Positions 12,001 to 15,000 of a stretch of DNA of 35,626 nucleotides are shown piece by piece. Origin of the DNA: a virus (lineage: Duplodnaviria > Heunggongvirae > Uroviricota > Caudoviricetes); the IMG/VR virus record IMGVR_UViG_2874962485_000008; one strand, 5' to 3'. Made by a program: the position numbers. Each line of letters begins with the position of its first letter. The stretch's first letter is position 1.

Positions 12001-15000
12001 TTCTGGCCATATCTGACAACAGGGAAGAGGTGAAGGATTTAAAATTCAGCTTACCGGTGGTACAGAATGTCGCCAGTGCATTACCGGCACTGCTGAATGC
12101 CACTGTAAACATCTGTTCTGCCGTTCCCGCCGCATTATCCGCATCCGCCGTAAAATTCTGAAACGCCCGCATGGCACCGTTTTTCCAGTCGCCCTGCGCC
12201 ACTTCCAGTTCCTGCCAGTAGCGTTTGTTTTCATTCAGTTGTCGCTTCAGGCTCCCCTTCAGCACCTCCTCAGCCCTCCGGTAGTCCTCCGTCCCGTAAG
12301 TGCCTTTCTGGCGACTGTCATTCTCAAGCTGTTGCAACTGTTGCCGGTATTCCTGCCGGATGCGCAACTGTGCCTGGTAGCGCTGCCGCTGCTTATCCCC
12401 CATACCTGCAGTGGCAATATCCAGATTGTGCTGCTCACGCAGTGCACGTTCTTTGTCTGCCAGCTGGCTGGTCAGCTGAACCGTTTTTTTTCTCAGGTCG
12501 TTAAGCGCTGTCTGTTTCTGCAGCTCCTGCTGTTTCACATCCAGCAGCGTCAGCGCCTGAATCAGCTCATTCTTACGGGCCAGCACACTCTTTTCATCTG
12601 CCGTCAGCTTTTTCCCGTCCAGGTCGCTGATGCGCTGCTGCAGGGCCAGAAGCTGTTTATGCGCTTCAGTCATCCTTTCAGTGGCAATGCCTGCTGACTG
12701 TCTGGCAGCAGCAATCTGCCCTTCCACCTGTGCCTGCTGCTGACTGTACTGCAGCAATAACCGGGTGGCCTCATCATTACGGGTTGCCCGTGTATTTTTC
12801 TTAATGGCTTTTTCGTAACGTTCATTTTCACGCTGTATCGCCGCATCCCTGACAGCCTGGTCGGCGTACTGCATGGCATTAATACGCGCAATTTCCCGCT
12901 GATGTCGTGCAGCTTCCGTTTCATTCATCCGGTTCAGCGCGGCATTTTCAGCATTCCGGCGTTTCTGTTGCTCCTGGTAATTCCGTTCTGCCTGCGCTTT
13001 TGCATCCTGCAAATCCTTCCGGCGTTTTTTCTCCTGAAGATCGTTAAGACGCTGCTGATCGTACTCCACCTGTGTGGAGGCGTTTGTCCACGGATATTTT
13101 TTCGCGCGCTGAATTTTTTCCTGTAACGCATCAATCTGCGCATCCAGCGAGTCTTCACGACCAATATTCATGGCCGCATCCCAGAACTGCTTCCACCAGT
13201 CAGACAAGGTTTGCAGCGTACTACCCAGCGCATTGAGATTATTATCAATATCAGATGTGCGTTTACCGGTTTCCTCTGCCAGCGCAGACATGGCGATCCG
13301 GGCCGCATCACTGGACCGCCCCTGCTCCCCAAGGACGCGTATCTGCTCAAGCTGAGTGGCATTCAAAAAATGCAGCGCATTGTCCAGCGCCTTCGCGGCA
13401 TTTACAGGATCATCCTTCAGCCGCTTAAACTGATTTATGGTATCGCTGACCGACTGGCCAACCGATCGCTCCATCTGTGCGGCAGCTTTCGCCACCATAC
13501 CAATATCGTTTCCATGAAATGCCCCACTGCCCACCACCTGTGCCAGCGCACCGGCTGCCGCATGTTGCGTGATACCATTCCCGGATATGGCCCGGCTGAG
13601 TTTCCACAACTGCCCGACAGTGACACCGGCATAATGTCCCGTCAGCGCCAGCTGACGGTTAAATTTCTCGCCCTCCTTCCGGCCGTCATGCCAGGCTTTA
13701 CCCAGACCCAGGACCGCCGCGACAAGTCCGCCAATAACGCCGCCAGTCATCATGCCTTTCGGCGACATCAGTGCGCCTGTCCATCCGGCACGGTTAGCCA
13801 GCGTTATCCCGGATCCCCTCAGCGCACCAAAATTGCCTCGCGCCATCTGACTGATTAACACCCCCAGCTCCCGCCGGGCTGCCGCACTTTTCAGCCCCAG
13901 CGAATGTGTGGCTTTTCCTGCCCGCTCCATTTTGCGGATATACACTTCTGCAGCACTGCTTACCCCCAGCTGAGCCGCCCTGGCGCGAAGCAACTCAGAA
14001 GACGACAGATTCTGGCGGGTTGCCTGCTCTTTAAGCTGGCGGATAAACGCCGCTTTCTGCCGGGTGGCCTGTTCCTCTGCCTGCGTCAGGGCACGGGTTT
14101 TCGCCGTGATCTCCGAAATCAGCGCCAGATAATCCTGCTGACCAACCCCGCCACTGTTTCTGGCCTGTCGGATCTGCTGCTGAATACGCTGTAATTCCTG
14201 AAGCCCCGCACCGGCCTGTTTCACACTGTCAATCTGGCGATAAAAGGCGGCAGCCGCTTTATCCTGCGCCTCCGCCAGTGCCCTGGCCTGCGCCTGTTCC
14301 TCGCGCATTTTCTGATTCAGGGCATCCACGCGCAGACGGGTTTGTTCCACCTCACGGGCCATGCGTTCATGAGCCCGTGCATTCTTCTCCACCGTCTGCG
14401 CATGGGCTGATGCTGCTGTTGCAGCCGAAGAAGCCGCCTGCATTGTCTGCCGGGCCGCCTGAGTCTGACGCTCCATAAAACGCTGCATACGGGCAGAAGA
14501 CCGTTCTGCATCGCTGGCTGCACCATTCAGAAGGTTTTTGATACGGGGAATTTCATTTTTAAACTCTGCCGCATCAATCCCCAAATCAATGACCAGGTTG
14601 GCTATCTGGTCCATAACGCACACCTCCGGAAATACCTTCCCCAAGATGCATCAGTTCTTCGTCCGTTCGCTCCGGTATCCCGTTCTCTTCCGGTAAAAGG
14701 CTGAAATCAGCCACCGCAGCATCGCTGCTGCCGGACACCATTCTCACGATCAATGCCTTCAGCGAGGCAAACTGCGCATCCATCCACACATCACTGAAGC
14801 TCTGCATCCGGAAATAATCGCCCCACTCACCAAGCTCAGTGGCCGACATATCCGACAGCATCCGCCGCCAGTCTGCCCGCCGGAACTCCCGGGCAAGCCG
14901 CATGACAAACTGCATTTCCCGCGTCAGGACTTTTCCGGCGTCAGCGCCTCATGATCATCATCCCCGGCATTCTCAATGGTCCCCATACCGCTCAGCGACA

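What the first reader, a model, noticed from the sequence alone, without database searches (positions are those of the whole stretch)
14913..14936. G/T overlap with a non-canonical candidate slippery site
T is only reachable by a -1 shift near the end of G, as in lambda. However the heptamer at the position of the lambda site reads G GAA AAG (G frame CCG GAA AAG) rather than the canonical GGGAAAG, so the P-site codon would mispair after slippage. Either frameshifting here uses A-site-only slippage or the true site is elsewhere.
Basis: partly seen in the sequence, partly recalled or inferred. Interest (0 to 1): 0.4.

Follow-up and report, generated by a model that had tools for sequence, protein, structure and literature searches.

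The report
Lambda-like G/GT tail-chaperone frameshift site
This is the ordinary ribosomal frameshift site that lambda-like phages use to make a small amount of a fused tail-assembly chaperone, and its "odd" sequence GGAAAAG is the commonest, already annotated version of that site in this gene family.

Summary
On the minus strand, gene G ends ...CCG GAA AAG TCC TGA, with its stop at 14926-14924. The T reading frame is -1 relative to G. The two frames overlap by only 22 nt (14948-14927). The only shift-prone motif in that overlap is G_GAA_AAG (14936-14930).

It is not an anomaly. In 28 lineages of lambda-T homologues (less than 80% T identity between lineages), 21 carry GGAAAAG at this exact position. 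Lambda's GGGAAAG occurs in only 3. Heptamer positions 1, 2, 4, 5 and 6 are invariant, while the surrounding synonymous sites vary freely. The pattern of codon conservation switches from the G frame to the T frame exactly at the heptamer.

The GenBank records of phage N15 and phage LLS already annotate GGAAAAG at the homologous place as the -1 slippery sequence.

The most likely mechanism is tandem -1 slippage. The lysine tRNA moves from AAG to AAA, a perfect match. The glutamate tRNA moves from GAA to GGA, which keeps two Watson-Crick pairs and adds one U·G pair in the middle position. The product would be a 242-aa GT fusion at a low ratio to G. I found no conserved stimulatory RNA structure.

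This is a known feature of low novelty. The frameshift itself was not tested experimentally here.

The parts
14924..15313 (-). Gene G, the tail assembly chaperone. It is 129 aa from the ATG at 15313, or 128 aa from the adjacent ATG at 15310. The stop is TGA at 14926-14924.
   Evidence: ORF. Pfam PF06894 (Phage_TAC_2, lambda protein G), E = 2.7e-40. GGAG lies 3-6 nt upstream of the two ATGs.
14930..14936 (-). -1 slippery heptamer G_GAA_AAG. The zero-frame codons are GAA-AAG and the -1 frame codons are GGA-AAA.
   Evidence: Sequence. The same heptamer is at the same place in 21 of 28 lineages, and positions 1, 2, 4, 5 and 6 are invariant in all 28. It is annotated as the slippery sequence in N15 and LLS.
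14949..14951 (-). TGA in the -1 (T) frame. It is the 5' limit of the region in which a productive -1 shift can occur.
   Evidence: overlap of 22 nt.
14586..14930 (-). T-frame part of the predicted GT fusion: 114 codons from GTC at 14930-14928, plus the stop TGA at 14588-14586. The predicted GT is 128 + 114 = 242 aa, with the junction ...ALTPEK|VLTREMQF...
   Evidence: Pfam PF06223 (Phage_tail_T), E = 5e-15. The predicted fusion aligns colinearly with lambda gpGT across the junction (E = 7e-42, junction Lys aligned). Wobble periodicity follows the T frame from the heptamer onward.
14913..14915 (-). ATG in the T frame that annotators use as a free-standing T start. It is lineage-specific and is probably not the route of T expression.
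   Evidence: annotations. An A at this position occurs in only 3 of 28 lineages. The Shine-Dalgarno sequence is weak and too close to the ATG.
15369..16109 (-). Context: major tail tube gene (lambda V-like, with a C-terminal Ig-like domain), immediately upstream of G.
   Evidence: Pfam PF16461, E = 5.8e-67, and Big_2.
11573..14614 (-). Context: tape measure gene (lambda H-like). It starts at the ATG at 14614 and overlaps the end of T by 29 nt.
   Evidence: Pfam TMP_2, Tape_meas_lam_C and TMP_4. The homologous start is annotated in mEp460.
15327..15349 (-). Context: terminator-like hairpin GCCCCGG-TTAT-CCGGGGC followed by TTTTT, between V and G.
   Evidence: The equivalent feature is annotated in the mEp460 and N15 records.

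Best explanation
This is the programmed -1 ribosomal frameshift site of a lambda-like tail-assembly chaperone pair in an E. coli prophage of the mEp460/cdtI type. Most ribosomes translate G and stop at TGA (14926-24), producing gpG. A small fraction slip back one base when GAA is in the P site and AAG is in the A site of G_GAA_AAG (14936-30). The lysine tRNA (anticodon mnm5s2UUU) re-pairs from AAG to AAA, a fully cognate match. The glutamate tRNA (mnm5s2UUC) re-pairs from GAA to GGA, keeping G-C and A-U and forming one U·G pair in the middle position. Translation then continues in the T frame (GTC...), giving a 242-aa G-T fusion. In the lambda model, the G part of this fusion binds the tape measure protein and the T part recruits the tail tube protein. 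No RNA stimulator is needed or present, as in lambda. What is shown here: the frame arrangement, the 22-nt overlap, homology to lambda G, T, V and H, the nucleotide-level conservation of the heptamer, and the G-to-T switch in coding constraint. What is inferred: that the shift happens, its efficiency, and the tandem (two-tRNA) mode.
For: The G-T overlap is 22 nt and contains a single shift-prone motif. The gene order V-G-T-H is backed by strong Pfam matches. The predicted fusion is colinear with lambda gpGT and the junction Lys is aligned. Among 28 lineages with less than 80% T identity, the heptamers are GGAAAAG 21, GGGAAAG 3, GGCAAAA 3 and GGGAAAA 1. Positions 1, 2, 4, 5 and 6 carry 2.0 bits of information, while neighbouring G-frame third positions average 0.17 bits. 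Position 1 is G after seven different codons: CCG, GCG, CTG, GTG, TTG, ACG and ATG. The background frequency of G at third positions in these G genes is 0.39. GAA is always used at the site, although GAA:GAG is 623:587 elsewhere in these genes. AAG is used in 24 of 28 lineages, although AAA:AAG is 243:183 elsewhere. The least conserved codon phase is G-frame position 3 upstream of the heptamer and T-frame position 3 downstream of it. N15 (NC_001901, 10027-10033) and LLS (PQ299149) annotate GGAAAAG as the -1 slippery or frameshift site, and LLS has a joined CDS. Published work supports the chemistry. A_AAG is the most shift-prone A-site motif in E. coli (PMC4066793). G_GA is a recognised non-XXX first part of functional heptamers (PMC5009743). 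An A·U-to-G·U change carries a low energetic penalty, and the AAG-to-AAA change is favourable (PMC6787027).
Against: There is no experimental evidence here for a GT product from this phage or from any GGAAAAG site. Tetramer-type A_AAG sites without a stimulator were near background in one reporter context (about 0.15%; PMC4066793). I found no stimulator: the downstream fold has z = -0.9 and -0.7, and the consensus structure across 26 homologues is -1.2 kcal/mol with no covariation. A middle-position U·G pair in the P site has not been measured in the papers I could read. The lineages share ancestry, so the conservation statistics overstate independence.
Confidence: 0.85

Rival explanations
1. 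The site and product are the same, but the slippage is A-site-only (hexanucleotide or tetramer type). Only the lysine tRNA shifts from AAG to AAA, and the P-site glutamate tRNA need not re-pair. This is the mode described for CGA_AAG in IS1222 and in Bacillus cdd.
For: A_AAR is the only part of the site that is invariant together with the GG. The P-site codon varies among GAA, GGA and GCA, and GCA-to-GGC re-pairing would be very poor. Such single-tRNA shifts are documented in E. coli (PMC5009743, section 31).
Against: Heptamer position 1 lies outside the hexamer and is a synonymous site, yet it is G in all 28 lineages after seven different codons. It always equals position 2, as the X_X part of the tandem rule requires. 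A_AAG alone was near background without a stimulator (PMC4066793), and no stimulator is present here. All of the GCA variants have a stop codon directly after the site, which suggests a different aid in those lineages.
Confidence: 0.25
2. There is no frameshift. T is made as a free 109-aa protein from the ATG at 14915, for example by termination-reinitiation after the G stop 8 nt upstream. This is how PGAP and most phage records annotate it.
For: An in-frame ATG lies 8 nt after the G stop. RefSeq, mEp460 and Tritos annotate T this way.
Against: The ATG is absent from 25 of 28 lineages, and LLS, phi80, N15, Gifsy-2 and lambda have no start codon there. Its Shine-Dalgarno sequence is weak and only 2 nt from the ATG. 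T-frame residues upstream of the ATG are conserved (K, and the invariant E of ...RE|M), and T-frame wobble periodicity begins at the heptamer. From established knowledge (Levin, Hendrix and Casjens 1993; Xu, Hendrix and Duda 2013, 2014, cited in PMC5009743), in lambda T is made only as the GT fusion, and the fusion is what links the tape measure to the tube protein.
Confidence: 0.07
3. The shift happens elsewhere: at a canonical heptamer missed by the first reader, by a shift of another size, or by transcriptional slippage at the A run.
For: None was found.
Against: The overlap is 22 nt and its eight in-frame heptamers include no X_XXY_YYZ. The GGGAAA at 14920-14915 lies after the G stop. A run of four A is far too short for polymerase slippage (established knowledge).
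Confidence: 0.02

Closest known systems
Phage lambda G/GT -1 frameshift at G_GGA_AAG (Levin, Hendrix and Casjens 1993; reviewed in PMC5009743; PMC3296357)
   Same: The proteins are homologous (PF06894 and PF06223). The gene order V-G-T-H is the same. The shift is at the aligned Lys codon near the end of G. The A-site motif A_AAG is the same. No stimulatory structure is present. The predicted fusion is colinear with lambda gpGT.
   Different: Heptamer position 3 is A, not G. The P-site tRNA is therefore Glu rather than Gly, and its single G·U pair after the shift is in the middle codon position instead of the third. The overlap is 22 nt instead of 61 nt, and the G stop is one codon after the site instead of five.
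Phage N15 genes 14/15 (NC_001901, 'slippery sequence for -1 translational frameshift' at 10027-10033) and phage LLS genes 11/12 (PQ299149, 'minus-one programmed translational frameshift site GGAAAAG')
   Same: The heptamer GGAAAAG is identical and sits at the homologous position of homologous genes. phi80, mEp043, Gifsy-2 and many Enterobacterales prophages share it.
   Different: The T proteins are only about 43% identical to this one. The upstream codon is GCG or GTG instead of CCG, and the distance to the G stop differs. As far as I could establish, those annotations are predictions too.
Hexanucleotide or tetramer -1 shifts at NNA_AAG (IS1222 G_CGA_AAG, Bacillus cdd A_CGA_AAG; PMC5009743) and the tetramer survey in E. 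coli (PMC4066793)
   Same: All rely on the E. coli lysine tRNA slipping from AAG to AAA.
   Different: In those cases P-site re-pairing is dispensable, and they usually depend on stimulators. Here positions 1-2 are conserved as if P-site re-pairing matters, and no stimulator is detectable.
E. coli dnaX A_AAA_AAG with an upstream Shine-Dalgarno-like element and a downstream stem-loop
   Same: The A-site codon and tRNA are the same, and it is a bacterial -1 programmed frameshift.
   Different: dnaX uses two stimulators and shifts at about 50-80%. Here a GAGG lies 10 nt upstream in this lineage but is not conserved, and no stem-loop is present. The expected efficiency is a few percent or less.
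G_GA-type heptamers of insect-specific flaviviruses, umbraviruses, dianthoviruses and mesoniviruses (PMC5009743)
   Same: The first part of the heptamer is G_GA instead of XXX.
   Different: Those are decoded by eukaryotic ribosomes, use different A-site codons and have RNA stimulators.

Membership tests
Conserved tail-assembly-chaperone frameshift of long-tailed phages (lambda G/GT type) | Two overlapping ORFs lie between the major tail (tube) gene and the tape measure gene. | tested here: met
   The order on the minus strand is V-like (15369-16109), G, T, H-like (11573-14614), supported by Pfam PF16461, PF06894, PF06223, and PF06791 plus PF09718.
Conserved tail-assembly-chaperone frameshift of long-tailed phages (lambda G/GT type) | The downstream ORF is in the -1 frame, overlaps the 3' end of the upstream ORF, and lacks a conserved start of its own. 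| tested here: met
   The ATG at 14915 is present in only 3 of 28 lineages.
Conserved tail-assembly-chaperone frameshift of long-tailed phages (lambda G/GT type) | A slippery sequence lies inside the overlap and is conserved at the nucleotide level. | tested here: met
   G_GAA_AAG is at 14936-14930. Positions 1, 2, 4, 5 and 6 are invariant in 28 lineages, and the coding phase switches at the site.
Conserved tail-assembly-chaperone frameshift of long-tailed phages (lambda G/GT type) | A fusion protein is made at a low, fixed ratio to the short product and is needed for tail assembly. | not testable with these tools
   This needs protein detection and genetics.
Canonical X_XXY_YYZ slippery heptamer | Positions 1-3 are identical and positions 4-6 are identical. 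| tested here: not met
   Positions 1-3 are G, G, A. Positions 4-6 are AAA. The site fits only the relaxed X_XN_YYZ form listed as 'intermediate' in PMC5009743 and as the 'twofour' motif in PMC10885494.
N15/phi80-type GGAAAAG G/T slip site | The heptamer GGAAAAG is at the aligned Glu-Lys of the G tail, followed by T-frame Val or Ala. | tested here: met
   (alignment columns 31-37).
Stimulator-dependent bacterial -1 frameshift (dnaX or IS911/IS3 type) | A stem-loop or pseudoknot lies 5-9 nt downstream, and/or a conserved Shine-Dalgarno-like element lies 10-14 nt upstream. | tested here: not met
   The folds are not better than shuffles (z = -0.87 and -0.72). The consensus structure of 26 homologues is -1.19 kcal/mol with no compensatory pairs. 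The upstream GAGG is present here but is not conserved.

The most novel reading that the evidence does not exclude
In the lambda-T family the majority slip site G_GAA_AAG places two tRNAs that carry the same mnm5s2U34 modification (Glu in the P site, Lys in the A site) on the heptamer, and it tolerates a middle-position U·G pair in the P site. The G:GT ratio of these very common E. coli prophages could therefore be set differently from lambda's. It could also be doubly sensitive to the host tRNA 2-thiolation (Tus/MnmA) state that is known to alter lambda's ratio (PMC3296357). The canonical lambda site would then be the derived minority form.
Probability: 0.25. Interest if true: 0.4.

Novelty: already known. 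Interest (0 to 1): 0.2.

Why it matters
The practical value is for annotation. In RefSeq (PGAP) and in most phage records of this group, T is called as a free 109-aa ORF from a non-conserved ATG, and the 242-aa GT fusion is missing. A near-identical G-T region (mostly 95-99% identity) is present in 1,847 of 5,426 complete E. coli genomes. For frameshift biology, the family survey shows that the textbook lambda heptamer is the minority form. It also shows that positions 1-2 of a 'non-canonical' heptamer are under strict selection, which gives a natural test case for how much P-site mispairing bacterial ribosomes tolerate. Neither point changes current understanding.

Tried and rejected
1. I looked for a canonical heptamer or any other shift site in the overlap and found none in the 22 nt.

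2. I looked for a downstream stimulatory structure. Single-sequence folds of 90 nt and 211 nt gave z = -0.87 and -0.72. The alignment fold of 26 diverse homologues gave essentially no structure and no covariation.

3. I looked for an upstream Shine-Dalgarno-like stimulator. GAGG lies 10 nt upstream in this lineage, but the element is not conserved. G tails are rich in Glu and Asp codons, so such matches are expected.

4. I checked enrichment of the 7-mer in the window. It is not enriched: 8 copies against 5.6 expected.

5. I searched the literature for the exact heptamer. No paper in the held library discusses GGAAAAG or G_GAA_AAG in phage tail genes. Xu, Hendrix and Duda 2004 (Mol Cell) and Licznar et al. 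2003 (EMBO J) are not held. I could therefore not check whether they list or measured this heptamer, and what I say about them rests on the review PMC5009743 and on my own knowledge.

6. The first viral-contig scan returned only near-identical relatives. Diversity came from genome contigs and from two further scans.

7. I considered transcriptional slippage and rejected it, because a run of four A is too short.
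Full report
**What is there**

All the genes concerned are on the minus strand. Window 14913-14936 reads GGAAAAGTCCTGACGCGGGAAATG.
- Gene G runs from the ATG at 15313 (a second ATG is at 15310) to the TGA at 14926-14924. Its last codons are CAT GAG GCG CTG ACG CCG GAA AAG TCC TGA.
- The T reading frame is -1 relative to G. It is closed by a TGA at 14951-14949 and then stays open to the TGA at 14588-14586.
- A productive -1 shift can therefore happen only within 22 nt (14948-14927).
- None of the eight in-frame heptamers in that stretch is a canonical X_XXY_YYZ.
- G_GAA_AAG (14936-14930) is the only one that lets the A-site tRNA re-pair cognately.

**What the genes are**

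The Pfam matches are:

| Gene | Family | E-value |
|---|---|---|
| G | PF06894, lambda tail assembly chaperone G | 2.7e-40 |
| T-frame product | PF06223, minor tail protein T | 5e-15 |
| Upstream gene | Lambda-type tail tube protein with an Ig-like domain | 5.8e-67 |
| Downstream gene | Lambda-type tape measure protein | 3.3e-46 |

The segment is 96-97% identical to phages mEp460, cdtI, Tritos and Ayreon. It is 99.9% identical to prophages in E. coli chromosomes. Close matches (mostly 95-99% identity) occur in 1,847 of 5,426 complete E. coli genomes. None of the records of this group that I opened annotates a fusion. T is called as a separate ORF from the ATG at the position equivalent to 14915.

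**Comparison with relatives**

I located the G/T overlap in 298 loci. These came from annotated phages, from one genome per bacterial species and from viral contigs. Every one has an N_NNA_AAR motif in the G frame inside the overlap.

After clustering the T proteins at 80% identity there are 28 lineages:

| Heptamer | Lineages | Examples |
|---|---|---|
| GGAAAAG | 21 | This window, N15, phi80, LLS, Gifsy-2 |
| GGGAAAG | 3 | Lambda, an Edwardsiella prophage, an E. albertii prophage |
| GGCAAAA | 3 | Kluyvera and Ewingella prophages |
| GGGAAAA | 1 | Providencia rustigianii prophage |

GGAAAAA also occurs inside one of these clusters. So the 'non-canonical' heptamer is the family norm, and lambda's textbook site is the minority form.

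**Evidence that the heptamer is selected as nucleotide sequence**

- *Invariant positions.* Positions 1, 2, 4, 5 and 6 are invariant across the 28 lineages (2.0 bits each). Position 3 is A, G or C, and position 7 is G in 24 and A in 4. G-frame third codon positions in the 30 nt upstream average only 0.17 bits.
- *Position 1.* It is itself a third codon position, and it is G after seven different codons: CCG, GCG, CTG, GTG, TTG, ACG and ATG. The background frequency of G at third positions in these G genes is 0.39.
- *Codon choice.* The Glu codon at the site is always GAA, although GAA and GAG are used about equally elsewhere in the same genes (623:587). AAG is preferred at the site, although AAA is commoner elsewhere (243:183).
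- *Phase switch.* The least conserved codon phase is G-frame position 3 upstream of the heptamer (0.17 against 0.67 and 0.64). Downstream it is T-frame position 3 (0.59 against 0.99 and 1.09). The coding constraint therefore changes frame at the heptamer.
- *Colinearity with lambda.* The predicted 242-aa fusion (...ALTPEK|VLTREMQFVMRLAREF...) aligns colinearly with lambda gpGT, with the junction Lys aligned (E = 7e-42).

The lineages share ancestry, so simple probabilities overstate independence. The repeated replacement of the upstream codon with no change at position 1 is still hard to explain without selection.

**Already known**

The N15 GenBank record marks 10027-10033 as 'slippery sequence for -1 translational frameshift', and I verified that this stretch is GGAAAAG. 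The LLS record has a joined CDS and the feature 'minus-one programmed translational frameshift site GGAAAAG'. The Gifsy-2 record describes its T homologue as part of a frameshift hybrid protein and has the same CCG GAA AAG TCC TGA. The site in the window is therefore a further copy of a recognised variant.

**Mechanism**

The tRNA identities below are established knowledge and were not tested here.
- In E. coli, AAA and AAG are both read by one lysine tRNA (anticodon mnm5s2UUU). Moving from AAG to AAA improves its pairing. PMC6787027 estimates this change as favourable, and PMC4066793 finds A_AAG to be the most shift-prone A-site motif.
- The P-site glutamate tRNA (mnm5s2UUC) moves from GAA to GGA. 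It keeps C36-G and U34-A and forms U35·G.
- Lambda's glycine tRNA moves from GGA to GGG and also acquires exactly one U·G pair, in the third position.

The two heptamers thus differ only in where the single wobble pair sits. G_GA is listed among the known non-XXX first parts of functional heptamers (PMC5009743). GGAAAA also fits the 'twofour' motif of PRFect (PMC10885494).

Position 1 always equals position 2, which is what the C36 of the Glu, Gly or Ala tRNA needs. For that reason I favour tandem slippage with near-cognate P-site re-pairing over pure A-site slippage. This sub-claim is an inference, at roughly 60:25.

**Stimulators**

The RNA downstream does not fold better than shuffled controls (z = -0.87 and -0.72). 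An alignment fold of 26 diverse homologues gives -1.19 kcal/mol and no compensatory pairs. A GAGG lies 10 nt upstream of the heptamer in this lineage but is not conserved. This matches lambda, where about 4% shifting occurs (PMC3296357, citing Levin et al. 1993). That lambda's shift needs no stimulatory element is my recollection of Levin et al. 1993, not something read in the held papers.

One caution applies. Bare A_AAG tetramers were near background in one reporter context (PMC4066793). The efficiency of G_GAA_AAG without a stimulator is therefore unknown and may be lower than lambda's.

**Rivals**

- *Free-standing T from the ATG at 14915.* This ATG lies 8 nt after the G stop. The explanation is unlikely for four reasons. 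The ATG is absent from 25 of 28 lineages. Its Shine-Dalgarno sequence is weak and too close to the ATG. Conserved T-frame residues lie upstream of it. In the lambda model, the function requires G and T in one polypeptide (PMC5009743).
- *A site elsewhere, or transcriptional slippage.* These are excluded by the 22-nt overlap and by the four-A run.

**Verdict**

The feature is real, functional in all likelihood, and ordinary. It is the N15-type version of the lambda G/GT frameshift, so novelty is low. The main practical consequence is that the GT fusion is missing from the standard annotation of a very common E. coli prophage family.

Noticed in passing
Related loci L100, L102, L145, L157-L175 (heptamer at locus position about 701 or 901): Where the A-site codon of the slip site is AAA instead of AAG (GGCAAAA, GGGAAAA, GGAAAAA), the G stop codon TAG follows the heptamer directly. 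This holds in 4 of 4 lineages, against 3 of 24 for AAG sites (Fisher p = 0.0017). It suggests that in those lineages a stop codon in the A site aids a P-site slip of the lysine tRNA, which would be a different mode from the one in this window.
   Followed up: partly
Loci L130-L143 and L151-L154 (genome contigs): About twenty assemblies of unrelated bacteria (Neobacillus, Oceanobacillus, Kitasatospora, Shewanella, Pseudomonas, Leeuwenhoekiella, Enterococcus and others) contain short contigs, several with coverage near 1x in their names, whose G/T overlap is identical to phage lambda's. These are almost certainly lambda DNA contamination, not prophages.
   Followed up: no
window 14913-14915 (-) and the equivalent position in RefSeq, mEp460 and Tritos records: PGAP and most depositors annotate T as a free 109-aa ORF from a lineage-specific ATG, and no GT fusion is annotated. 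Ayreon and phi80 start T even further downstream. Only N15 and LLS mark the slip site, and only LLS joins the CDS.
   Followed up: yes
window 15327-15349 (-): A perfect 7-bp GC hairpin (GCCCCGG TTAT CCGGGGC) followed by TTTTT lies between the tail tube gene stop (15369) and the G start (15313). The same element is annotated as a rho-independent terminator in mEp460 and N15. It could lower transcription of G, T and H relative to the abundant tube protein.
   Followed up: partly
window 14586-14614 (-): The tape measure gene starts at the ATG at 14614, inside the end of T (stop at 14588-14586). The overlap is 29 nt, in a different frame. The same arrangement is annotated in mEp460, Tritos and RefSeq.
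   Followed up: no
window 14948-14951 (-), 10 nt upstream of the heptamer: A GAGG (Shine-Dalgarno-like) lies at the spacing at which dnaX's upstream stimulator acts. It overlaps the TGA that closes the -1 frame. It is present in several lineages but not in most, so it is probably a by-product of the Glu-rich G tail.
   Followed up: partly
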